A DNA stretch of 64,000 nucleotides from Ostreococcus lucimarinus (taxonomy: Eukaryota): assembly GCA_000092065.1 (NCBI GenBank), contig CP000585.1; one strand, given 5' to 3'. A program made the position numbers and the translations under genes. Shown in pieces: positions 16,740 through 25,805 of this stretch. Positions within the stretch are counted from its first letter, which is position 1. Every line of letters starts with the position of its first letter. The notes below the pieces were generated by a model. That model ran no database searches. It was not told the origin of the DNA and was given only the letters and a program-made list of their open reading frames with translations.

Positions 16740-18449
16740 ATGGCCGACCAAGACAGCAATGAAAAAGAAATTGAAAGTACGTCGCGCCCCATCGCATCGC
16801 TCGATCGATCGCGTCGCCCGCGCCCTCGGGCGCGCGTGCGGCGTTGATAAAGCGCGCCGATGACTTCGGCCTAGGTCGAGTGCGCGTACGGTTTCACCTC
16901 GCTCGCGTCGCTACGAACGCGCTCGAGACGCTCGCGACGCGCGCGCGAGGTCATGAATGGCACGCGTGACCACGAGCGAACGACTGACGAGACATTCGCG
17001 CCGCGCGCGCGCGCCGTTGACGATGAACAGTATGGAAGATGCGCAAGGTGCGACTGGCGGCTCGAACTCGACGCGCTCGTGGGAGCAAAAACGATGAGAA
17101 ATCGCGACGTGTCGGCATCGCGAACGAGGTGAACGAAGACTGACGGACTATTATATCGTTTTACTCGAACGTAGCTCATCAAGAAGCTGGAAGACGCGCG
17201 CGGGAACGGGACGTCGATGATTTCGCTCGTGATCCCGCCGAAAGGGCAAGTGAACCTGGTGCAAAAGATGTTGATCGAAGAGATGGGCACGGCGACGAAC
17301 ATTAAGTCTCGAGTCAATCGACAGTCAGTGCTCGATGCGATCGGTTCGGCACAACAGCGCTTGAAGCTGTACAATAAAGTGCCGCCGAATGGGCTCGTCG
17401 TGTATTGCGGCGCGGTGTTGACGGAGAGCGGGAAGGAACGGCAGATGAAGATTGATTTTGAACCCTTCAAACCGATCAACACGTCGTTATACATGTGTGA
17501 CAACAAGTTTCACACTGCAGCGTTGAGTGATTTGTTGCAAAACGATCAGAAGTATGGTTTCGTCGTAATGGATGGTAACGGGACGCTCTTCGGAACCTTG
17601 TGCGGGAACCATCGCGAGATTCTACAAAAGATTTCCGTTGATTTACCGAAAAAGCACGGTAGAGGTGGTCAATCCGCGCTTCGTTTCGCGCGTCTGCGTT
17701 TAGAAAAACGTCAAAACTACCTTACCAAGGTTGCTGAGCTCACGACGCAGCATTTCATCAGTAATGATAGGCCCAACGTCGCCGGCTTGGTGCTCGCCGG
17801 TTCGGCGGATTTCAAGAACAAACTCGCCGAGGCGGATTGCTTCGACAGTCGCCTTCAAGAAGTCACCTTGGCCGTAGTCGATGTCTCTTACGGCGGTGAA
17901 AACGGCTTTAATCAAGCGATTGAGCTCTCCGCGGACACGCTTTCGTCGCTCAAGTTCATCCAAGAAAAGAAATTGGTTGGCAAGTTTTTCGACGAAATCG
18001 CCCAAGACACGGGCAAGTACGTTTTTGGTATCAACGATACTTTGACGTGCTTGGAAATGGGAGCGGTTGAAACTTTGGTGTGCTGGGAAGATCTCGAGGT
18101 CGCGCGCGTGACCCTGAAAAATAGCAGCACCGGAGAGGAGACGATTAAGTTTTTGCGGCCCGAAGAGACTGAGGGCAATGAAAACGACCACGTGCGCGAC
18201 GCCGATGGCAACGATTTGGAGATTGTCGAATCCGTCCCGCTGTTGGAGTGGCTAGCAAACGAGTACAAGAAGTTTGGTTGCGTCTTGGAACTCATCTCGG
18301 ATAAGTCGCAAGAGGGTAACCAATTTTGCCGTGGTTTCGGCGGCATCGGCGGTTTGTTGAGATATCAAGTCGATCTCACCGCCTTCGAAGTCGCCGCCGA
18401 CGCCAACTCCGACGATTGGGACTCCGACGATTCCGAATGTTTCATCTAA
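16740..18449 (+). CDS. eRF1: Eukaryotic peptide chain release factor subunit 1 (eRF1). Three exons: join(16740..16776, 17031..17047, 17175..18449), including a 17-nt microexon.
   Basis: Exon 3 is an unmistakable eRF1 ([20 protein letters not shown], YxCDxxF, GFGGIGG). The conserved N-terminal EIWK(I/M)KKLIKxLE is reconstituted only by splicing [12 protein letters not shown](a) + (ta)TGGAAGATGCGCAAG + CTCATCAAGAAG..., giving ...[27 protein letters not shown]. Donors are GTACGT and GTGCGA; acceptors are aacAG and a polypyrimidine tract (ttatatcgttttactcgaacgtAG) with a CTGAC branch at about 17140. Confidence 0.88.
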
Positions 18450-18617
18450 CCCTTCCCGTTGCATTGACTCGATCCTAACGCCACATCCCATAGCATTAAC
18501 AATAAGACGACCCTGGCAGTTGTTCGACGCCGCGCGCGCGAGCGCCTTATCCTTCACACGCGCGCGCGTTCGCCGTCGGTGCCCTCCCGCGACGCGGCGC
18601 GCCTCCGTAAACGTACC

Positions 18618-19085
18618 ATGGGTATCGCCGCCAGCGCCACGTCTGGCTCCATCGCGCGTCGCGTCGCTCGTGACGACGACGCAACGAACAAGTCGTTAGC
18701 GTTACACCCCGTGCACGCCGACGCCCGCGCCCTCCCGCCCTGGACGCCGTCCTCCATCATCGACGCCCTCCCGGACGACATGGTGGACATCATTCTCGAC
18801 CACTGCACCGGCGTCGACCTCGCGCGCGCGGAGTGCGTGTGCACGAGGTTGCTCTCGCTCGCGCGACGCAGCGAACGAAGGTGGCGGGACGCCCTCGCGC
18901 GCGACTTCGGCGTGCAATTCGCCCCAGCCCCGGGCGTCGAACGACTGCCGGGGCTGCCGCGAGGATCGATGAAGCGCGAGTACGTCGCGTGTCGAGAGAC
19001 GCTCCGCGCGATCGTGCGTGGGTGCGCGAAAGGCGCCGACGGCGGCGTCCCGAACTTTGCGCTCGGGACGAGGGTGTACGCGTGA
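18618..19085 (+). CDS. Small F-box-like protein
   Basis: F-box motif LPDDMVDIILDHCTGVDLARAECVCTRLLSLARRSERRWRDAL. First ATG at 18618; stop at 19083-19085. Confidence 0.4.
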   Translation: MGIAASATSGSIARRVARDDDATNKSLALHPVHADARALPPWTPSSIIDALPDDMVDIILDHCTGVDLARAECVCTRLLSLARRSERRWRDALARDFGVQFAPAPGVERLPGLPRGSMKREYVACRETLRAIVRGCAKGADGGVPNFALGTRVYA

Positions 19086-19113
19086 ACGCCGCAGTCTTAG
19101 ACGCGCGCGATCG

Positions 19114-19581
19114 ATGGATTTCGATCGCCTGCTCGAGGGCGCGCTGAAGGATGCGCGTCGACATCTCGGGTCGTCGAGTAAGGACGGCTGGCGCGCCGCC
19201 ATCGACGCGTGGGTTGGGTTTTATAGCGCGGTGGATTGGCGCGAGCCGTGGTTGAGAGCCTTGCTCGCCGCCCACGCGTGCTTGTTTATCGTCGTTTTGC
19301 TCACGCGAAGAGATGAGCGAACGCAAGGAGTGTTGTTCTGCGCGTGCGCGGCGATCGTATTCATGGCGGAGCGCATCAACGCTCTGGCGGCGGCGAAGTG
19401 GGAAACCTTCGCGACTCAAAACTACTTCGACCCGAGGGGTCGGTTCACGTCCGTCGTGCTCTCCACGCCGCTGGTCGTGGCGACGCTCGTGATTTTGGTG
19501 AATTTGTTACTCATCATGACGTCGATGATGGTTGAAGTGGCGAAACGGCGCAAAGACGCGGGGGTGAAGAAGACTCAATGA
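19114..19581 (+). CDS. TMEM18: TMEM18-family transmembrane protein
   Basis: TMEM18 signatures: VDWREPWLRALLAAHACLFIVVLLTRR (human: TDWTEPWLMGLATFHAL), ...INALAAAKWETFATQNYFDPRGRFTSVVLSTPLVV..., and a basic C-terminus (KRRKDAGVKK). ATG at 19114 (the ORF-track start at 19018 is GTG). Confidence 0.65.
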   Translation: MDFDRLLEGALKDARRHLGSSSKDGWRAAIDAWVGFYSAVDWREPWLRALLAAHACLFIVVLLTRRDERTQGVLFCACAAIVFMAERINALAAAKWETFATQNYFDPRGRFTSVVLSTPLVVATLVILVNLLLIMTSMMVEVAKRRKDAGVKKTQ

Positions 19582-19761
19582 GTTTTGTCTAGTGTACTAG
19601 TACAGTGGAGCTTGTAAAAGAATGTAAAACGATTGGTTGATTGCGTCCTCGACTTCGCGCGCGGATGCGTAAGGTTGCATGAATTTTTGTTACACATATG
19701 AGGTGGAAGTGTTGTGTTCATGGGGCTATCGATTGTTGGATAGTTGGAACTATGCCCGCCG
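19582..19761. terminator. AT-rich convergent 3' region (TMEM18 stop at 19581, PDCD4-like stop at 19762)
   Basis: The only AT-rich stretch in the area (gttttgtctagtgtactagtacagtgg...gaatttttgttacacatatgagg). Confidence 0.35.
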
Positions 19762-20928
19762 TCAGTCAAATTTGACGACGTCGTGCTGAACGCAAATCTG
19801 TTTGATGTGGTCGAATTTCGACTTGGCGTCGGGGATGTCCAAGCTCAAGTCTTCGATCGCGCCGTTGGTGCGTATGAAGCCTTTCTGTAGTTGACTCGCG
19901 CTCAATTCGGCGCTGTCTCCGAGAACCTTGAATAGCCCGAGAATGACTGCAACGCTGTGGCAATCCCGCGGAGCTTCCAGCGCAATGTTCAACGCTTGCT
20001 TGACAAACTCGTGATGGAAGAAGGGCATGTGTAGGTCGTGCAAGCAACGACGAGTCTCCGAAACGTCGTTCGTCACCACGTATTCCTCCAGCATCGACTT
20101 GATTTGCAGCTTGGCGGCGTCCAGAGGCGACTTGTCGAAATCGCCCCACGCGCGAAGCACTCGATCAATGTGACCAGGTCCAAAGAGATGTCCGTGTGCC
20201 AGTAGAAGGGCCTCTTGCGACTGTTTACCTTCGCACGTTACGAGACAGGCGACGTTATCCGGGAATGAGGGCGGTAAGATGTCGTCGATGATGGCTCGCG
20301 CGATGAACATGCCCAACGTTTCAGCCGCGTCGGGAACGTCGATGGACAAATCATCCGCGGCTTCGACGAGACGCAAGAACCCACGCTGTATTTGCGCTCC
20401 CGACAGCGCGCTGGGATACAACGCGCTGAGTAACGTCGCCGCGGCTTCTTTTTCTCGATGCCCCCGGTCCATAGCGAGGGTAACGAGGCGCTTCACGAAG
20501 AAGTGTTCGTACACGGGCGCGTCCAACTTCTCCACGCTGATCCACGCCTCGTCAATGTCCGCAGAGTTGAAATACTCGTTGATGATCGTCTCGGCTTTGT
20601 TTTTGTACTCCACGACGACGTCCGATTTCGCGTCGCCCGCCGCCGCGCGCAACCCAAACGGTTCCTCCGTCGAGTCGTAATTCGGATCTCCCCTATCCAA
20701 CGCGAACACAGGCGATTCATCGATCACGCTCAGCACGCGCATTGTTTCATCACCCTTCTTACCCCGCCCGCTCGCTCGACTGTGCTGCACCCCGTGTCCA
20801 TCGGTCCATTTTTGCTCGAGCGCGTCGCCTCGCCGGTCCGAGCCCTTCGCGCGCGCCGCCTCCAACTGCGTTCGCTTTCGCAGCGTCGCGTCGAACGCCT
20901 TTTGCTGTTCGGCCGTGAGCAGCACCAT
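19762..20928 (-). CDS. PDCD4: PDCD4-like protein with two MA3 domains
   Basis: KDPNYD-type motif (LDRGDPNYDSTEEP) followed by two MA3 repeats (ETIINEYFNSADIDEAWISVEKL..., LEEYVVTNDVSETRRCLHDLHMPFFHHEFVKQALNIALE). Real ATG at 20926-20928. Confidence 0.75.
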   Translation of the reverse strand: MVLLTAEQQKAFDATLRKRTQLEAARAKGSDRRGDALEQKWTDGHGVQHSRASGRGKKGDETMRVLSVIDESPVFALDRGDPNYDSTEEPFGLRAAAGDAKSDVVVEYKNKAETIINEYFNSADIDEAWISVEKLDAPVYEHFFVKRLVTLAMDRGHREKEAAATLLSALYPSALSGAQIQRGFLRLVEAADDLSIDVPDAAETLGMFIARAIIDDILPPSFPDNVACLVTCEGKQSQEALLLAHGHLFGPGHIDRVLRAWGDFDKSPLDAAKLQIKSMLEEYVVTNDVSETRRCLHDLHMPFFHHEFVKQALNIALEAPRDCHSVAVILGLFKVLGDSAELSASQLQKGFIRTNGAIEDLSLDIPDAKSKFDHIKQICVQHDVVKFD

Positions 20929-21224
20929 GTCTGTCAGCGTCGACGCGATCTTCCGATCGCCCGTTCGTCCCTCTCTCTCTCGCGCGCGTCGCGGTTCCGA
21001 GAGCGGTCGGTTGGACCGTCGCTTTTCGACGATTCCTTCTCTCCGCGCGTCTCGCGCGTCGCGTCGCCGCGCGTCGCCGTTCGCGCGCGCGAGACCGAAG
21101 ATCGGACCCTTTCCGACGCTCCGCGCGCGCGCTCGCGCGTGTCCGTCGATCTACGCGCTCGCGTGTGCGGCGCGACGTCGACGCGAGGGCGACCCGCTGA
21201 CGTGGCGACGATAAACGCGCGCGC

Positions 21225-21314
21225 GTCATTTTATATGGGCTAAAAATAGTCACAGTATAGATGCCTGCGCATGAGTTACAGTTGGCGACCGCGACCGCGA
21301 CCGCGACCGCGACC
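21225..21314. promoter_or_regulatory. AT-rich island (tttatatgggctaaaaatagtcacagtatag) followed by a (GCGACC)5 microsatellite, inside the roughly 1-kb GC-rich head-to-head spacer between PDCD4-like (-) and the parvulin gene (+); candidate TATA-type core-promoter element
   Basis: This is the only AT-rich patch in 20929-21945; the hexamer repeat lies at 21285-21314. Confidence 0.3.
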
Positions 21315-21945
21315 GACCCGCGCGTTCGCCGCGCGGCACCGTCGACGCCGCCGCGTCGACCGCGTCCCTCGATCGTCCCTCAATCGTCGCAGTTCGGATC
21401 GTCGCGATCGAGCGCGTAGATCGGCGCCTCGTCGCGCATGCGAATCGCCGCGGCGTCGTCGCCCTTGCGTCCGCGTCCCGACGCCCTCGCGTGCGTGTGT
21501 CCGCGCGCGTCGCGCCACGTGTCGCGCTTCGGCGGCGATGCCGGCGGCGACGCCGCGGGTTCCGCCGCCGCCGCGGCGCGCGCCTCGAGCCGCAGGCGCT
21601 CTTCGTCGGATTTCACGAGCATGTGGGTTGGTTGGATGTCCCGGCGTCGGTCGTCTCGAGCGCGTCGGCGTCGCGCGCGGGCGTTCGCGGTGTCGCGGTC
21701 GCGCGTCGAGGGTGACGCGGCGCGCGCTTTTCGATCGCGCGCTTCGAGCGCGTCGACGTGTGCGCGCGCGCGACGCGCGCGCGTCGACGCGCGCTGCTGA
21801 CGCGGACGCGGGCGTCGGTCCGTGTTGCGGTCCGTGTTGAAGCGACGCTTCGCGTCGCGGCGTCGACCGACGGCGCGCGCGCGGCGACGCACTCGCGCGC
21901 GCGACGAACGCGACGAACGCGACGCGCGAACGACGCGCGATCGCG

Positions 21946-22638
21946 ATGCCGCGAGGGCGAACCGAGGACGGCGCGCGCGAGGGAGGACGGCGAAGGGTGA
22001 CGCGCGGCGGATGGCGATGGGTCCGCGGCGCCGCGCTCGCGGGCGTCGCGCTCGCGAGCGGCGGCGCGCGCACGGCGCTGGCGAAGAGCAAACTGCAGAT
22101 CGTGAACGCGGGACACGATATCGCGCACGCGTCGCACATACTGTGCGGGACGGGGGACGCGGGGAAGCGAAAGTGTCAGGATTACGCGGAGATGTTGACG
22201 CCGTACCAGGACTCGGCGCACACGCTGGAGCGAGCGTTCGCCGAACTCGCGAGGCGGTACAGCGAGTGTCCGACGGGAAGCGACGGTGGTGATTTGGGGT
22301 ATTTTCCGAGAGGCGAGATGTCGCGAGATTTCGAGAGCGTCGTGTTCGATTCCAAGACGCCGTTGGACGCGGTGGTGGGACCGGTGGAGACGAGAAACGG
22401 TTGGCACGTCATGCTCGTGCACCACAGGCATCTCGCGGATGAAGACGCGAAGGAAAGGGCGCGTTTGAAATCTGAAGAGATGAAGAGAGAACGATTGGAG
22501 CGCGCGGAGAAGCAGAAGGAGTATCAAGAGGAACGGGCGCGTCGAAAGGCGCAACGAGCGGCGAAGCGCCACGAGCGAGACGCCGATAGACACTCGCTTC
22601 ACGCACACGCCGAGGAGCACCTTCACGATGAACTGTAA
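21946..22638 (+). CDS. Parvulin-type peptidyl-prolyl cis-trans isomerase (Par14/PpiC-like) with an N-terminal signal/anchor-like segment and a C-terminal HDEL
   Basis: Rotamase core ASHILC..., SDGGDLGYFPRGEMSRDFESVVF, GWHVMLVHHR (compare human Par14 VRHILC / [21 protein letters not shown] / GYHIIMVE). The N-terminus has a hydrophobic stretch WRWVRGAALAGVALASGGA. The C-terminus is a charged helix ending ...EEHLHDEL. Real ATG at 21946. Confidence 0.75.
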   Translation: MPRGRTEDGAREGGRRRVTRGGWRWVRGAALAGVALASGGARTALAKSKLQIVNAGHDIAHASHILCGTGDAGKRKCQDYAEMLTPYQDSAHTLERAFAELARRYSECPTGSDGGDLGYFPRGEMSRDFESVVFDSKTPLDAVVGPVETRNGWHVMLVHHRHLADEDAKERARLKSEEMKRERLERAEKQKEYQEERARRKAQRAAKRHERDADRHSLHAHAEEHLHDEL

Positions 22639-22705
22639 GAGCGCCGTTATGACAGCTGAAGCGTATAGACACCAACATCACCGCATGCATTAAAAATAAT
22701 TTGAA

Positions 22706-24037
22706 TCAATAACGTTCGAGAAGCTCTCGCAAATACTCCGCGCGATCCGCGAGCGCGCCCGCATTCGTCGTCACCCCGTAGCCATCCATCAGCTCTTCCG
22801 CTTGCCAGAGCTCGCGCAAAAGCTCCCAGTACTCACCGCCGTTGTCGGACAGAAACTCACACGCATCGGTCCAGTCGGGCTCTTCCTCGCAATACGCGCG
22901 AATACGTTTGAAATCCAGTTCGTGAATGTCGACGAAGACGCGACGAAGCGCCTCAGCCGACGTCGCGTCCGACGGCCCGTAAGCCGCGAGCGACGCGAAC
23001 ACGAGCTCGGTGAGCACCAGCGCCATGGCTTTCAGATCAACGACGACGCTTGTTGGCGTGCAAAGCGTACTACACCCAAAATTAATCAGCCTGACTTCCA
23101 GATCGTCCGCCTTTGTGTCTAAAAACGTGCTGCACAAAAACGTCGACCCGTCCAACGCCCCGTGCGCCACGCCCCTCTGATGCGCGTACCACACCCCCTT
23201 CAAGCACTGCTCGAACGCTCTTCTCACGTACCTCGCCCGCGCTTTCTTTGGTTGGTCTTGCACGCGCTGCACCGGAGGCCAAAACTTCGTCTCAGACTTC
23301 CCTTCCTGCTTCGCTCGCGCGTACTCGCTCAGCCTTCGCACGCCGTGCCACTCCTGCGCCGTCCACAAGCTCCTAGTCCCATCACCGTCGATCGAGGCCG
23401 ACGCGAAGTACCCAACCAGTCTCGCGATCGGTAACGCTTTTTGTGGCAGCATCCCCGGCCCTCGACCGTACTCATCCACCTCAATCTCCACGTCGTCGTC
23501 CGCCAGCAGCCGCTCGTACGCCCGCACCTCCGTCTCCGCGAACGCCGCCGCGCGTTCACCCGCGTACTCCTTCAGCATCACCGCGCCTCTGTCGGCGTTC
23601 CTCGAAATCGGCGGTACCGACGGTGTGTGCACGTACCTCCCCGCGTACACGTTCACCCTCGCCGCGCCGTCGTCGACCTCCTCCTCGACGCTCGACGCCG
23701 CGACGCTCTCCGGCGCGCCGCCGTCCGCGCTCGCGCGCCACGCGAACGCGCTCGCGCTCGGCCGCTCCGTGCGCAGCGTCACCGATCCCAGGCGCGTGGT
23801 GATTTCAAAATCGTCCGCCTCGGCGCGTTCGAGCGCGCTCCGCGTCGTCGTCGTCGGGTTCGTTCGACGTCCTCGCGCGCGCCCGTCGTGGATAGCGCGT
23901 CGACTTCGCGCGCGCGTTCGCGCGCCGGCGCGCGGCGCGCGCTCGAGCGCCGCGCGCGCGCGCACGACGCGAGCGTTCGCGCGCATGTCCCGCGCGCGCC
24001 GGTCGTTCGCGACCGCGCGCGTCGAGGAATGCCGCAC
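22706..24037 (-). CDS. Protein-kinase-like domain protein with degenerate catalytic motifs (HGALDG instead of HRDLK; NFG instead of DFG); probable pseudokinase with a low-complexity N-terminus
   Basis: VWYAHQRGVAHGALDGSTFLCSTFL...LEVRLINFGCSTLCTP matches subdomain VIb/VII spacing. The start is uncertain: ATG at 24035-24037 or an internal Met (MLKEYAGER). Confidence 0.4.
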   Translation of the reverse strand: MRHSSTRAVANDRRARDMRANARVVRARAALERAPRAGARTRARSRRAIHDGRARGRRTNPTTTTRSALERAEADDFEITTRLGSVTLRTERPSASAFAWRASADGGAPESVAASSVEEEVDDGAARVNVYAGRYVHTPSVPPISRNADRGAVMLKEYAGERAAAFAETEVRAYERLLADDDVEIEVDEYGRGPGMLPQKALPIARLVGYFASASIDGDGTRSLWTAQEWHGVRRLSEYARAKQEGKSETKFWPPVQRVQDQPKKARARYVRRAFEQCLKGVWYAHQRGVAHGALDGSTFLCSTFLDTKADDLEVRLINFGCSTLCTPTSVVVDLKAMALVLTELVFASLAAYGPSDATSAEALRRVFVDIHELDFKRIRAYCEEEPDWTDACEFLSDNGGEYWELLRELWQAEELMDGYGVTTNAGALADRAEYLRELLERY

Positions 24038-24245
24038 TCGTCGACGCGGTTCGTTTCATGTCCCCGAAAACGCCCGCGGTGACGTCGGCGCCCGCGCGTC
24101 GCGACGAGCGCGCGCGCGAGGGCGAACCCGTGGAGGTGTTCGCCGCGCACTCGCCCTACGACGCGCTGTGCGTGCTCGTGGCGCTCGTTCTCGGGCTGTT
24201 TCGAGCGGCGAGCGCGCGGTGCAGCTGCTGAATCGAGTCGAAACG

Positions 24246-25805
24246 ATGAAGCGCGAAGACGCGCTGCGCGCGACGAGCGCGACGCTGCGCGCGCGATCCG
24301 TGCACGAAGCTCGCGTGCGACGATTGAACGACGCGCGCGCGAGGGAGGCGCCGGATGGGGCGTACGTGTTGCTCTGGGCGCAGAGCGCGCAGAGGACGCG
24401 CTGGAACGAGGCGTTGGAGTACGCGGTCGACCGGGCGAACGATAGACGCGCGCCGCTCGTGGTCGTGTTTTGCTCGACGGCGACGTACCCGGAGGCGAAC
24501 GAACGACACGTTGGGTTCATGTTGGAGGGGTTGTGTGAGATGCGGGCGACGCTCGGGAAGCGGCGAATCGCGTTCGAGGCGTTCGCGTGCGCGCCGCCGG
24601 AGGCGGCGCTGGCGGCGAGCGAACGAGCGATCGAAGTGGTGACGGATTCGGGGTATTTACGGTTACTTCGCGCGTGGCGGGATGACTTGGCGCGGAGGGC
24701 AACGTGCGCGGTGACGGAGATCGAGACCGAGTGCGTGGTGCCGCAGTTGGGGCAGGGGGCGCGACGCGCGGAACCGTCGGCGGCGACGTTTCGGCCGAAG
24801 GTGCTGGCTCGCGTGCGGGAGTTCACTAGAAACGCGTGCGCCGTGCTGCCTTACATCGCGGGCGAACTGGATGACGCGACGCGCGCGATTTTTGAGAAGA
24901 CTGTCGACAAGTACGAGCGGCTGCCGCTCGAGCGAGGCGTCGACGCGTGCTTGAACGTCCTCGACGCTTACGGGCTAAAGCGAGATCCCAGCTGTCCTCG
25001 CGTGTCGTCTCACGTCGGTGGAGAGTCTCGAGCCAAGGCGAAGCTCGATGTGTTTTTGACGAAAAACATGCTCTCGCGCTATCATCATTCGCGTAACGAT
25101 CCGTGTTTGTGTTTGCAGAGTCATCTGTCGCCGCACATTCACTACGGGCAAATCTCCGTCGTCGAAGTGGCTCGCAAAGCGCTCGCGTTTCGCGACGCAC
25201 ACGCCGATGAAGCCGACATCTGTGCAAGCGTGGATGTTTTCCTCGACGAACTCATCGTACGAAGAGAGTTGGCGGTGAATTTTGCGCTGCGAAACCCAAA
25301 GTATGATTCTTACGACGGGCTTCCCGAATGGGCGCGAGAGACGCTGGAGAGGCATCGAGGTGATCGCCGCGAATGGACGTATACACTCGAGGAGTTTGAA
25401 CACGGCCGAACGCACGATAAGTTATGGAATGCATCGCAACGAGAGCTTGTGTCCAGTGGTAAACAACACAATTACTTGCGAATGTACTGGGGAAAGAAAA
25501 TCCTCGAATGGAGCTCGACGCCAGAAGAGGCTTGGCGTATCGCGATGACGCTCAACAATAGATATTCACTCGACGGTCGAAATATGGTTTCTTTGACCGG
25601 CGTGGGATGGTGTTTCGGCCTGCACGACCGTGAATTCCACGAGGCGAGCATAACTGGCACGATTCGACGCTTTTCTGAATCTGGCATGCGCAAGAAGTTC
25701 CCAGCCGGAATAAAGGGCTACCTCGAGCGTTGGGGCGACGACGGAGGGACGAAACGCCAACTGCGACTCGAAGACGTGTTCGGCAAACGATCGAAATCGA
25801 AATAG
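24246..25805 (+). CDS. Class II CPD photolyase (deoxyribodipyrimidine photo-lyase)
   Basis: Class II signatures: GAYVLLWAQSAQRTRWNEALEYAV..APLVVVFC, FLDELIVRRELAVNF, WNASQRELVSSGKQHNYLRMYWGKKILEW. Start at ATG 24246 (MKREDALR...). The ORF-track 5' extension to 23625 overlaps the divergent upstream gene. Confidence 0.85.
   Translation: MKREDALRATSATLRARSVHEARVRRLNDARAREAPDGAYVLLWAQSAQRTRWNEALEYAVDRANDRRAPLVVVFCSTATYPEANERHVGFMLEGLCEMRATLGKRRIAFEAFACAPPEAALAASERAIEVVTDSGYLRLLRAWRDDLARRATCAVTEIETECVVPQLGQGARRAEPSAATFRPKVLARVREFTRNACAVLPYIAGELDDATRAIFEKTVDKYERLPLERGVDACLNVLDAYGLKRDPSCPRVSSHVGGESRAKAKLDVFLTKNMLSRYHHSRNDPCLCLQSHLSPHIHYGQISVVEVARKALAFRDAHADEADICASVDVFLDELIVRRELAVNFALRNPKYDSYDGLPEWARETLERHRGDRREWTYTLEEFEHGRTHDKLWNASQRELVSSGKQHNYLRMYWGKKILEWSSTPEEAWRIAMTLNNRYSLDGRNMVSLTGVGWCFGLHDREFHEASITGTIRRFSESGMRKKFPAGIKGYLERWGDDGGTKRQLRLEDVFGKRSKSK

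What the first reader, a model, noticed from the sequence alone, without database searches (positions are those of the whole stretch)
21946..22638. Parvulin-type PPIase carrying an N-terminal signal/anchor-like segment and a C-terminal HDEL ER-retrieval motif
The rotamase core is clearly parvulin, and the protein ends in HDEL after a charged helical tail, which points to an ER-lumenal location. The ER PPIases I know are cyclophilins and FKBPs, so an ER-retained parvulin would be an unusual compartmentalisation of this fold.
Basis: partly seen in the sequence, partly recalled or inferred. Interest (0 to 1): 0.5.

Follow-up and report, generated by a model that had tools for sequence, protein, structure and literature searches.

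The report
Probable ER-resident parvulin prolyl isomerase
This gene of the tiny marine green alga Ostreococcus lucimarinus encodes a parvulin-type protein-folding enzyme that carries both an entry signal and a conserved HDEL retention tag for the endoplasmic reticulum, a compartment where this enzyme family has not been described.

Summary
Window 21946-22638 (+) is a 230-aa ORF identical to Ostreococcus lucimarinus XP_001417752.1, annotated only as "predicted protein". Residues 64-159 are a PpiC-type parvulin domain (Pfam E=8e-25) with the catalytic His/Cys/His in place and no Pin1-type WW domain or phosphate loop.

- All 94 full-length relatives (O. tauri, Bathycoccus, unnamed marine relatives) end in H[DE]E[LF], although the 30 alignment columns before it are variable and full of indels.
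- All 16 orthologues examined have a basic N-region, an uncharged hydrophobic run, and small residues at -3/-1 just before a conserved Lys/Arg. That is a signal-peptidase site, predicted after Ala46 here.
- The Bathycoccus N-terminus is a textbook signal peptide with no room for a plastid transit peptide.
- O. lucimarinus ERD2 was among the ERD2 orthologues tested for retention of HDEL cargo (PMC10036638); HDEF binds the KDEL receptor (PMC7617889).
- A convergent gene ends 67 nt downstream, leaving no room for an alternative 3' exon.

Best reading: a soluble ER-lumenal parvulin foldase. No paper in the searchable library describes one. Similar signal-peptide parvulins with xxEL tails occur in oomycetes and unidentified protists. 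Localisation and activity remain untested.

The parts
21946..22638 (+). Complete single-exon gene for a 230-aa parvulin (O. lucimarinus XP_001417752.1), including the stop codon
   Evidence: ORF list and translation. Exact match to the RefSeq/UniProt entry.
21946..22083 (+). Predicted cleavable signal peptide, residues 1-46: Arg-rich n-region (1-27), h-region GAALAGVALASGGA (28-41), c-region RTALA with Ala at -3 and -1
   Evidence: Hydropathy and motif table. The same architecture appears in 16/16 orthologues. The rough Hessa-scale sum is +5.8, too weak for a stable membrane anchor.
22084..22113 (+). Conserved start of the predicted mature protein (K47-SKLQIVNAG, family motif K-x-K-L-x-I-V-N)
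   Evidence: Alignment A1. Conservation resumes abruptly at this Lys after the variable N-terminus.
22135..22422 (+). PpiC-type parvulin PPIase domain (residues 64-159), with H64 (22135-22137), C108 (22267-22269) and H154 (22405-22407) at the catalytic positions
   Evidence: Pfam PF00639 E=8e-25. HMMER alignments to HP0175, Par10 and Pin1. AF2 model plus Foldseek.
22144..22176 (+). Cys67...Cys77 pair at the beta1/alpha1 junction, a candidate lumenal disulfide
   Evidence: Both Cys are present in 14 of 15 aligned sequences, and both are replaced together (Thr/Ala) in P0017.
22441..22605 (+). Long charged (E/R/K/A-rich) predicted alpha-helix, residues 166-220
   Evidence: AF2 DSSP helix 166-220; pLDDT 10-residue block means mostly 78-95, falling to 60 at the C-terminal end. 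Composition E13 R12 A11 K7 in 64 residues. Moderately conserved, majority fraction 0.63.
22567..22623 (+). Variable His-rich linker (RHERDADRHSLHAHAEEHL) containing the semi-conserved RHSLH motif
   Evidence: Alignment A1. Six His in the last 30 residues; length is variable among orthologues.
22624..22635 (+). C-terminal HDEL tetrapeptide (ER retrieval signal), followed by TAA at 22636-22638
   Evidence: Sequence. H[DE]E[LF] in 94/94 full-length relatives. Conservation island.
22639..22705 (.). 67-nt AT-richer spacer up to the stop codon of the convergent minus-strand gene (22706-24037). It leaves no room for an alternative 3' exon.
   Evidence: Sequence and ORF list. GC falls to 0.53 here.

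Best explanation
The gene encodes a soluble, ER-lumenal prolyl cis/trans isomerase of the parvulin family.

Inferred mechanism: the N-terminal 46 residues act as a signal peptide that directs co-translational import into the ER. Signal peptidase then cleaves after Ala46 (A-L-A|K). The mature ~21-kDa protein is a single PpiC/Par10-like parvulin domain, followed by a ~55-residue charged helix and a His-rich linker. It works as a general, non-phospho-specific foldase for secretory and membrane proteins. Copies that escape to the Golgi are captured by the K/HDEL receptor ERD2 through the C-terminal HDEL and held in or returned to the ER.

Shown here: domain identity, catalytic residues in place, conservation of the signal-peptide architecture and of the terminal tetrapeptide, and orthology by microsynteny.

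Inferred: import, cleavage site, ER residence, enzymatic activity, and client range.
For: Domain:
- Pfam Rotamase E=8e-25.
- AF2 parvulin fold, with Foldseek hits to PrsA, Par10, SurA, Par14 and Pin1.
- H64/C108/H154 align to the catalytic His/Cys/His of HP0175 and Pin1, and L117/M125/F129 align to the Pin1 proline pocket.

Not Pin1-like: there is no WW domain. The beta1-alpha1 segment is about 10 residues shorter than in Pin1, and HMMER aligns only from residue 77 onward.

C-terminal signal:
- HDEL 67, HEEF 10, HDEF 9, HEEL 8 = 94/94 full-length relatives. The only exceptions are intron read-through or frame-shifted prokaryote-style gene calls.
- The last four columns form a conservation island.
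- HDEF binds the KDEL receptor (23 vs 18 uM for HDEL) and retains cargo, less efficiently than HDEL (PMC7617889).
- O. lucimarinus ERD2 was one of 12 orthologues tested, and the large majority strongly reduced Amy-HDEL secretion. The exceptions named were T. brucei, K. lactis and S. cerevisiae (PMC10036638).

N-terminal signal:
- 16/16 orthologues have a basic n-region, an 11-33-residue uncharged run, and A/V/G at -3 with A/G at -1 directly before a conserved K/R.
- Bathycoccus starts MFPRHFVFLFQVLLAFFFISFSG....

Orthology: the gene order eRF1 / F-box / TMEM18 / MA3(-) / parvulin(+) / unknown(-) / photolyase(+) is shared by the window and L005, and partly by Bathycoccus L002.
Against: - There is no experimental localisation, and no dedicated predictor (SignalP/TargetP/DeepLoc) could be run.
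- The O. lucimarinus h-region is short and only moderately hydrophobic (best 11-residue Kyte-Doolittle window 1.75, best 10-residue window 2.0). It follows an unusually long 27-residue Arg-rich n-region containing RRR, which superficially resembles organellar or Tat-type presequences.
- The catalytic-site Cys108 is retained, as in cytoplasmic Par10 and Pin1. From my own knowledge, many bacterial extracytoplasmic parvulins have Asp at this position, and a free Cys is less expected in an oxidising lumen.
- Position 151 is Asn, where Pin1 has Ser154. The consequence for catalysis is unknown.
- The paper's text does not give the individual value for the O. lucimarinus receptor.
Confidence: 0.72

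Rival explanations
1. Type II signal-anchor protein. The hydrophobic segment is not cleaved; it tethers the protein to the ER membrane with the Arg-rich N-terminus in the cytosol and the parvulin domain in the lumen. HDEL serves as a back-up retrieval signal.
For: The long, strongly positive n-region (9 Arg in 27 residues) fits the positive-inside rule. Some orthologues have 20-33-residue uncharged runs with a rough Hessa sum near 0-2, for example Bathycoccus -0.8 and O. tauri 2.0.
Against: In O. lucimarinus and its closest relatives the uncharged run is only 11-14 residues, with a Hessa sum of +5.6 to +7.2, too short and weak for a stable anchor. A small -3/-1 cleavage motif is conserved in 16/16 orthologues immediately before the conserved mature N-terminus. 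K/HDEL signals are typical of soluble lumenal proteins (established knowledge).
Confidence: 0.12
2. A secreted, cell-surface or post-Golgi/vacuolar parvulin. The tail only slows export or has another role (for example His-rich metal binding), so the steady-state location is not the ER.
For: Related signal-peptide parvulins in oomycetes include two-domain forms ending KKSK or KKSD, with no retrieval-like tail, so secreted parvulins probably exist in eukaryotes. F-ending variants (HDEF/HEEF) retain cargo less efficiently than L-ending ones in human cells (PMC7617889).
Against: The terminal H[DE]E[LF] is strictly conserved at the very C-terminus in 94/94 relatives, while the adjacent residues drift. 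That pattern is what selection for receptor binding predicts. The O. lucimarinus protein itself has canonical HDEL, and the species has an ERD2.
Confidence: 0.08
3. Chloroplast or thylakoid-lumen parvulin. The Arg-rich N-terminus plus hydrophobic segment plus A-x-A would be a bipartite transit/Tat-type lumenal targeting signal, analogous to thylakoid-lumen FKBPs and cyclophilins.
For: RRR is followed by a hydrophobic stretch and ALA|K in O. lucimarinus. The thylakoid lumen is rich in PPIases in plants (established knowledge). The domain is of bacterial PpiC type.
Against: Bathycoccus orthologues begin the hydrophobic core at residue 6, leaving no room for a stromal transit peptide. The O. lucimarinus N-terminus contains acidic residues (E7, D8, E12). 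The RRR lies 9 residues before the h-region rather than abutting it. A thylakoid location gives no explanation for a universally conserved C-terminal H[DE]E[LF].
Confidence: 0.04

Closest known systems
E. coli PpiC (Par10) and other small bacterial PpiC-type parvulins
   Same: Best sequence match among solved structures (1jns, E=7e-11). Shares the S-x-C-P-[ST]-G...GGDLG-x-F...G-x-M...F...G-[WY]-H signature. Single domain, with no Pin1 phosphate loop. Foldseek TM-score normalised to target is 0.77.
   Different: Par10 is a 93-residue cytoplasmic protein with no signal peptide, charged helix or HDEL. The window protein scores 43 bits against the NCBIfam PpiC equivalog model, whose cut-off is 127, so it is not an equivalog.
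Bacterial extracytoplasmic parvulin foldases (PrsA, SurA, PpiD, HP0175/PEB4)
   Same: These are parvulin domains working on newly translocated proteins in a compartment topologically equivalent to the ER lumen. They are the top Foldseek hits (PrsA 6xd8, HP0175 5ez1, SurA). Weak sequence alignment continues into the helix that follows the domain.
   Different: They carry N-terminal (and C-terminal) chaperone modules or lipid anchors, and no SurA_N-type domain is detected here. They are retained by the cell envelope rather than by a retrieval receptor. Many have Asp where this protein keeps Cys108 (own knowledge).
ER-lumenal PPIases of the other two families (cyclophilin B; FKBP13/FKBP2, FKBP23/65; fungal KDEL-FKBPs)
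   Same: Same proposed compartment, same logic (signal peptide plus C-terminal retrieval/retention motif), and same presumed job of accelerating prolyl isomerisation of secretory proteins. One example is the KDEL-tagged FKBP orthogroup in Penicillium (PMC8192932).
   Different: Unrelated folds. In surveys of animals, fungi and plants, parvulins are reported only as Pin1- and Par14-type cytosolic/nuclear proteins (for example). No ER parvulin was found in the literature searched.
Eukaryotic parvulins Pin1/Ess1 and Par14/Par17
   Same: Same catalytic fold, and the His/Cys/His positions align (Pin1 E~1e-8; Par14 E~1e-4).
   Different: There is no WW domain, no phosphate-binding basic loop, and no Par14-type basic N-terminal extension. 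The protein carries secretory-pathway signals instead of nuclear or mitochondrial ones.
Oomycete signal-peptide parvulins (e.g. Phytophthora, Pythium 'PpiC-type PPIase', about 145 aa)
   Same: Eukaryotic. Built from a signal peptide, a single PpiC-type parvulin domain and an acidic tail ending in a conserved x-x-[DE]-L (DRDL, DKDL, KKDL, KKEL, TDEL). They are also uncharacterised.
   Different: They are a separate family, about 40% identical in the domain and much closer to bacterial PpiC. They have no long charged helix, and most tails are not canonical K/HDEL.

Membership tests
Parvulin / PpiC-type PPIase (Pfam PF00639) | Significant match to the family profile above the curated threshold | tested here: met
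   88.1 bits against a gathering cut-off of 21.7, E=8e-25, covering profile positions 1-96 of 97.
Parvulin / PpiC-type PPIase (Pfam PF00639) | Parvulin fold (four-stranded sheet with flanking helices) | tested here: met
   AF2 model with pLDDT mostly 73-93 over the domain (dipping to ~62 over residues 111-120); element order E-H-H-E-H-E-E. Foldseek probability 1.00 to PrsA, Par10, SurA, Par14 and Pin1, with TM-score normalised to target up to 0.78.
Parvulin / PpiC-type PPIase (Pfam PF00639) | Catalytic-site His...Cys/Asp...His and hydrophobic proline pocket | tested here: met
   H64, C108 and H154, plus L117/M125/F129, align to the corresponding residues of HP0175, Par10 and Pin1. They are invariant in the 15-sequence alignment. 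Asn151 replaces Pin1 Ser154.
Parvulin / PpiC-type PPIase (Pfam PF00639) | Measurable prolyl cis/trans isomerase activity | not testable with these tools
   Requires recombinant protein and an enzymatic assay.
Pin1/Ess1 subfamily | N-terminal WW domain and basic phosphate-binding loop (Pin1 K63/R68/R69) | tested here: not met
   No WW domain in the Pfam scan. The segment between the first catalytic His and helix 1 is about 10 residues shorter than in Pin1 and is not aligned by HMMER. The basic residues K73-R74-K75 are not conserved in Bathycoccus.
PpiC (Par10) equivalog, NCBIfam NF011969 | Whole-protein score above the curated cut-off | tested here: not met
   43.3 bits against a cut-off of 127. 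This is domain-level similarity only.
PrsA / SurA-type chaperone-foldases | N-terminal SurA_N / PrsA NC chaperone module flanking the parvulin domain | tested here: not met
   No PF09312/PF13624/PF13623 match. PrsA and SurA NCBIfam scores are 20-40 bits against cut-offs of 343-394.
Soluble ER-lumenal residents retrieved by the K/HDEL receptor | N-terminal ER signal peptide | tested here: inconclusive
   A heuristic n/h/c architecture and the -3/-1 rule are satisfied in 16/16 orthologues, and Bathycoccus has a classic signal peptide. However, no trained predictor was available, and the O. lucimarinus h-region is short (14 residues) after a 27-residue n-region.
Soluble ER-lumenal residents retrieved by the K/HDEL receptor | C-terminal tetrapeptide of the [KRHQSA]-[DENQ]-E-L type at the extreme C-terminus | tested here: met
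   HDEL sits immediately before the stop codon. H[DE]E[LF] is conserved in 94/94 relatives. The F variant is a documented receptor ligand (PMC7617889). The PROSITE-type pattern is quoted from my own knowledge.
Soluble ER-lumenal residents retrieved by the K/HDEL receptor | A cognate ERD2 receptor in the same organism | tested here: met
   From the literature: O. lucimarinus ERD2 was cloned and assayed with Amy-HDEL in N. benthamiana protoplasts, and 'the vast majority' of orthologues were functional, the named exceptions being other species (PMC10036638). The receptor gene was not looked for in sequence data here.
Soluble ER-lumenal residents retrieved by the K/HDEL receptor | Demonstrated ER localisation that depends on the tetrapeptide | not testable with these tools
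   Needs fluorescent fusions with and without HDEL, or fractionation.

The most novel reading that the evidence does not exclude
ER-resident parvulins are an overlooked third class of eukaryotic ER prolyl isomerases. They would be derived from bacterial PpiC-type enzymes and present in several protist lineages: Mamiellophyceae (H[DE]E[LF] tails), oomycetes (acidic tails ending x-x-[DE]-L), and unidentified marine protists with a signal peptide, two parvulin domains and KDEL/KEEL/xAEL tails. In picoalgae with minimal genomes they could carry a substantial share of ER prolyl isomerisation. The charged helix and His-rich linker might act as a spacer or as a pH/metal-sensitive module that tunes receptor-mediated retrieval.
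Probability: 0.3. Interest if true: 0.65.

Novelty: new variant of a known kind. Interest (0 to 1): 0.5.

Why it matters
Textbook accounts and genome-wide PPIase surveys place only cyclophilins and FKBPs in the ER. Eukaryotic parvulins are treated as nuclear or cytosolic regulators (Pin1, Par14), or as mitochondrial (Par17).

A parvulin with a conserved signal peptide and K/HDEL-type tail would put the third PPIase fold in the eukaryotic secretory pathway. That mirrors the extracytoplasmic parvulin foldases of bacteria (PrsA, SurA).

It is directly testable, because O. tauri is transformable. It could also explain how very small algal genomes equip their ER folding machinery.

Finding analogous signal-peptide/xxEL parvulins in oomycetes, which include major plant pathogens, and in other protists suggests the phenomenon is broader than one lineage.

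The limits should be clear. This is a compartment prediction for a known enzyme family using known targeting signals. It is not a new mechanism.

Tried and rejected
- **Reading Vallon 2005** (Chlamydomonas immunophilins and parvulins), by DOI and by PMC id: not held in the library.
- **Literature searches** for parvulin with HDEL, KDEL, ER lumen, signal peptide + alga, or Phytophthora: no description of an ER parvulin was found. Hits concerned FKBPs, cyclophilins or unrelated topics.
- **afdb50 fold search**, intended to name more orthologues such as Micromonas: the library was unavailable.
- **Cluster look-ups** for the non-Mamiellophyceae signal-peptide parvulins: no organism names were returned. 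Their contigs are single-gene, transcript-like Logan assemblies from environmental runs.
- **Transcript evidence** for the Ostreococcus gene: the contig carrying P0002 turned out to be genomic, with flanking genes, so it gives no transcript support.
- **Bacterial promoter/terminator scan**: no sites were found, as expected for a eukaryotic nuclear gene.
- **Pin1-like phospho-specific isomerase**: considered and rejected, because there is no WW domain or phosphate loop.
- **Spurious ORF in GC-rich DNA**: considered and rejected, because the gene has conserved orthologues with microsynteny.
- **Alternative C-terminus by splicing**: considered and rejected, because only 67 nt separate the stop codon from the convergent gene, and the tail is conserved.
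- **Cys67-Cys77 disulfide**: could not be tested, because model coordinates are not exposed.

Full report
**1. What is in the sequence.** Window 21946-22638 (+) is an uninterrupted ORF of 230 codons, from the first in-frame ATG after an upstream stop to TAA. The translation is identical, residue for residue, to Ostreococcus lucimarinus CCE9901 XP_001417752.1 / UniProt A4RXH5. The sources call it "predicted protein" or generically "peptidyl-prolyl cis-trans isomerase". The window is therefore nuclear DNA of this picoalga (Mamiellophyceae).

The neighbouring genes are eRF1(+), F-box(+), TMEM18(+), MA3(-), parvulin(+), a 443-aa ORF(-) and a photolyase(+). The same order is found around a 62-66%-identical relative in an unnamed NCBI assembly (L005). 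It is also partly found in Bathycoccus prasinos (L002: F-box, TMEM18, MA3(-), parvulin(+)). These genes are therefore orthologues, not chance look-alikes.

**2. The catalytic core.** Pfam Rotamase (PF00639) matches residues 64-159 at E=8e-25, 88 bits against a cut-off of 21.7. An AlphaFold2 model built on a 15-sequence family alignment gives pLDDT mostly 73-93 over the domain, dipping to about 62 over residues 111-120, with parvulin topology. Foldseek against the PDB returns PrsA, HP0175, Par14, Pin1, SurA and Par10 at probability 1.00.

HMMER alignments place H64, C108 and H154 on the catalytic His/Cys/His of HP0175, Par10 and Pin1. They place L117/M125/F129 on the Pin1 proline pocket. N151 sits where Pin1 has Ser154 (Pin1 numbering is from my own knowledge). 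All of these residues are invariant in the family alignment.

The best solved relative is E. coli PpiC/Par10, at E=7e-11. The protein has no WW domain, and the segment corresponding to Pin1's phosphate-binding loop is about 10 residues shorter. It is therefore a PpiC-type, presumably non-phospho-specific, parvulin. It is not a PpiC equivalog (43 bits against 127) and has no PrsA/SurA chaperone module.

**3. The C-terminus.** After the domain comes a predicted 55-residue helix (166-220), very rich in E, R, K and A, then a variable His-rich linker, then HDEL and the stop codon.

Among all relatives retrieved, every full-length sequence ends in H[DE]E[LF]: HDEL 67, HEEF 10, HDEF 9, HEEL 8. The relatives are O. 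tauri, Bathycoccus prasinos, a second Bathycoccus-like lineage, and several unnamed marine lineages at 62-88% identity. The only exceptions are prokaryote-style gene calls that read through the Bathycoccus intron or are frame-shifted.

In the alignment the last four columns have a majority fraction of 0.88 and full occupancy. The 30 columns before them have 0.32 and 0.50. This is a conservation island of the kind expected for a receptor-read C-terminal signal.

- HDEL fits the classical retrieval pattern (own knowledge).
- HDEF is a demonstrated KDEL-receptor ligand that retains cargo somewhat less well than HDEL (PMC7617889).
- O. lucimarinus ERD2 was among 12 orthologues tested for retention of Amy-HDEL in plant protoplasts. 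The "vast majority" were active, and the exceptions named were T. brucei, K. lactis and S. cerevisiae (PMC10036638).

A convergent gene ends only 67 nt after the stop codon, the RefSeq model is the same single exon, and the tail is conserved. In Bathycoccus the single GT...AG intron lies inside the parvulin domain, and the annotated product still ends in HDEF.

**4. The N-terminus.** In O. lucimarinus, residues 1-27 are Arg-rich. Residues 28-41 (GAALAGVALASGGA) are uncharged and moderately hydrophobic. Residues 42-46 are RTALA, followed by K47, where strong conservation begins (K-x-K-L-x-I-V-N).

Across 16 orthologues the pattern is constant: a basic n-region, an uncharged run of 11-33 residues, A/V/G at -3 and A/G at -1, directly before the conserved K/R. 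This is the signature of a signal-peptidase site held in register with the mature protein. Bathycoccus sequences begin with an unmistakable signal peptide (MFPRHFVFLFQVLLAFFFISFSG...).

In the Ostreococcus group the hydrophobic run is too short and weak for a stable transmembrane anchor, with a rough Hessa sum of +5.6 to +7.2. I therefore favour a cleaved signal over a signal anchor. In either case the domain would be lumenal. No trained predictor was available, so this part remains heuristic.

**5. Rival explanations.**
- **Thylakoid-lumen (transit peptide plus Tat-like) reading.** RRR...hydrophobic...ALA suggests it. However, Bathycoccus leaves no room for a transit peptide, the O. lucimarinus N-terminus contains acidic residues, and a plastid location does not explain the conserved H[DE]E[LF].
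- **Secreted or post-Golgi location.** This is conceivable, since oomycetes have signal-peptide parvulins without retrieval-like tails. It does not explain the strict conservation of the tetrapeptide.
- **Spurious ORF.** This is excluded by orthologues with microsynteny.

**6. Additional features, not proven.** Cys67 and Cys77 flank the beta1/alpha1 junction. Both are present in 14 of 15 aligned sequences, and both are replaced together in one lineage (P0017, Thr/Ala). That is suggestive of a disulfide, which would fit an oxidising lumen, but I could not measure distances in the model.

Bathycoccus lineages carry an N-R-T sequon in this segment, and O. lucimarinus has none. The charged helix is moderately conserved (0.63), so it is probably functional. 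Possible roles are a spacer, oligomerisation, or a remnant of the helix that follows the parvulin domain in PrsA/HP0175, as hinted by weak alignments.

**7. Distribution.** An exhaustive HMMER scan of 1.84 billion representatives found only four clusters at E<1e-30. Two are Mamiellophyceae; the other two (P0129, P0130) are the signal-peptide two-domain parvulins from unnamed contigs described below. No land-plant or Chlamydomonas orthologue appeared, so the family is lineage-restricted. The next-best hits include many other eukaryote-like PpiC-type parvulins with signal peptides.
- One group is an oomycete family (Phytophthora, Pythium, Aphanomyces, Achlya and others). It is about 145 aa, with a signal peptide, one domain, and an acidic tail ending DRDL/DKDL/KKDL/KKEL/TDEL.
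- Another group, from unnamed transcript-like contigs, has a signal peptide, two parvulin domains and tails ending KDEL, KEEL, HAEL, NAEL, DAEL or DDEL.
- Parvulin-thioredoxin and parvulin-FKBP fusions with signal peptides also appear.

Secretory-pathway parvulins thus seem to be more widespread in protists than the literature suggests.

**8. Comparison with what is known, and novelty.** The enzyme class, the signal peptide and the K/HDEL retrieval system are all well known. The gene itself is in public databases. What appears to be undescribed is the combination: a parvulin resident in the eukaryotic ER.

Five full-text searches found no such report. Surveys of fungal PPIases, for example, place an FKBP in the ER and list only Pin1- and Par14-type parvulins.

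Functionally, the closest analogues are bacterial extracytoplasmic parvulin foldases (PrsA, SurA), and ER cyclophilin B and ER FKBPs. By sequence, the closest is PpiC/Par10.

I rate this a new variant of a known kind, of moderate interest (0.5). It is a well-supported and easily testable prediction that adds a third PPIase fold to the ER. It is not a new mechanism, and it is so far without experimental support.

Noticed in passing
P0224, P0279-P0321 (proteins); not in the window: Oomycetes (Phytophthora, Pythium, Lagenidium, Aphanomyces, Achlya, Thraustotheca) have a conserved ~145-aa family: signal peptide, single PpiC-type parvulin domain, and an acidic tail ending DRDL/DKDL/KKDL/KKEL/KDDL/TDEL. 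This may be a second, independent ER-type parvulin family. In at least two genomes it appears to sit next to a two-domain signal-peptide parvulin that ends KKSK, judging from the locus tags (V7S43_008634/008635; P43SY_010051/010052).
   Followed up: partly
P0129, P0130, P0137, P0159, P0397, P0398, P0400, P0401, P0403, P0405, P0410; loci L003, L004: Single-gene, transcript-like contigs from environmental runs (SRR29179223, ERR1719265) encode a signal peptide plus two parvulin domains with tails ending KDEL, KEEL, DDEL, HAEL, NAEL, DAEL, SAEL or KSEF. The organisms are unknown. P0130 and P0129 are the closest relatives of the window protein outside the Mamiellophyceae.
   Followed up: partly
P0153, P0171, P0190, P0211, P0223, P0231, P0240, P0241, P0243, P0250: A 170-200-aa eukaryote-like family with an N-terminal signal peptide, an acidic stretch, a conserved 'AKPWY/WYxR' motif, a second hydrophobic (transmembrane-like) segment, and then a PpiC-type parvulin domain. 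This would be a membrane-tethered parvulin of unknown topology and organism.
   Followed up: no
P0256, P0441, P0453, P0455, P0459 and P0438, P0442, P0448, P0466, P0501: Signal-peptide parvulins fused to a thioredoxin domain (PF00085; P0256 contains a CGSC motif, and P0455 ends AEEL), or to an FKBP domain (PF00254; one is from the dinoflagellate Alexandrium monilatum). These look like multi-foldase proteins of the secretory pathway.
   Followed up: no
window 21380-21892 (-) and 19762-20928 (-): The minus-strand ORF upstream of the parvulin gene contains ...GRGRKGDDAAAIRMRDEAPIYALDRDDPNCDD. This resembles GRGKKGDETMRVLSVIDESPVFALDRGDPNYDS near the start of the MA3-domain ORF (PDCD4-like). The MA3 gene may therefore extend, via a frame change or intron, to an ATG near 21622. 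That would leave only ~320 nt of very GC-rich (75%) divergent promoter shared with the parvulin gene.
   Followed up: no
window 17217-25805; L005 1-8735; L002 1-3773: The gene order eRF1 / F-box / TMEM18 / MA3(-) / parvulin(+) / unknown ORF(-) / photolyase(+) is conserved between O. lucimarinus and a 62-66%-identical relative, and partly in Bathycoccus.
   Followed up: yes
window 22706-24037 (-): The 443-aa convergent neighbour has no Pfam match at E<=0.001, although a positionally equivalent 503-aa gene exists in L005. This is a conserved, uncharacterised Mamiellophyceae gene.
   Followed up: no
L002 3369-3475 (Bathycoccus prasinos): The Bathycoccus orthologue has one 107-nt GT...AG intron inside the parvulin domain (after ...KDFD), which is absent from Ostreococcus. 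Many metagenomic 'proteins' (P0018-P0041) are prokaryote-style calls that read into this intron and end prematurely or out of frame.
   Followed up: yes
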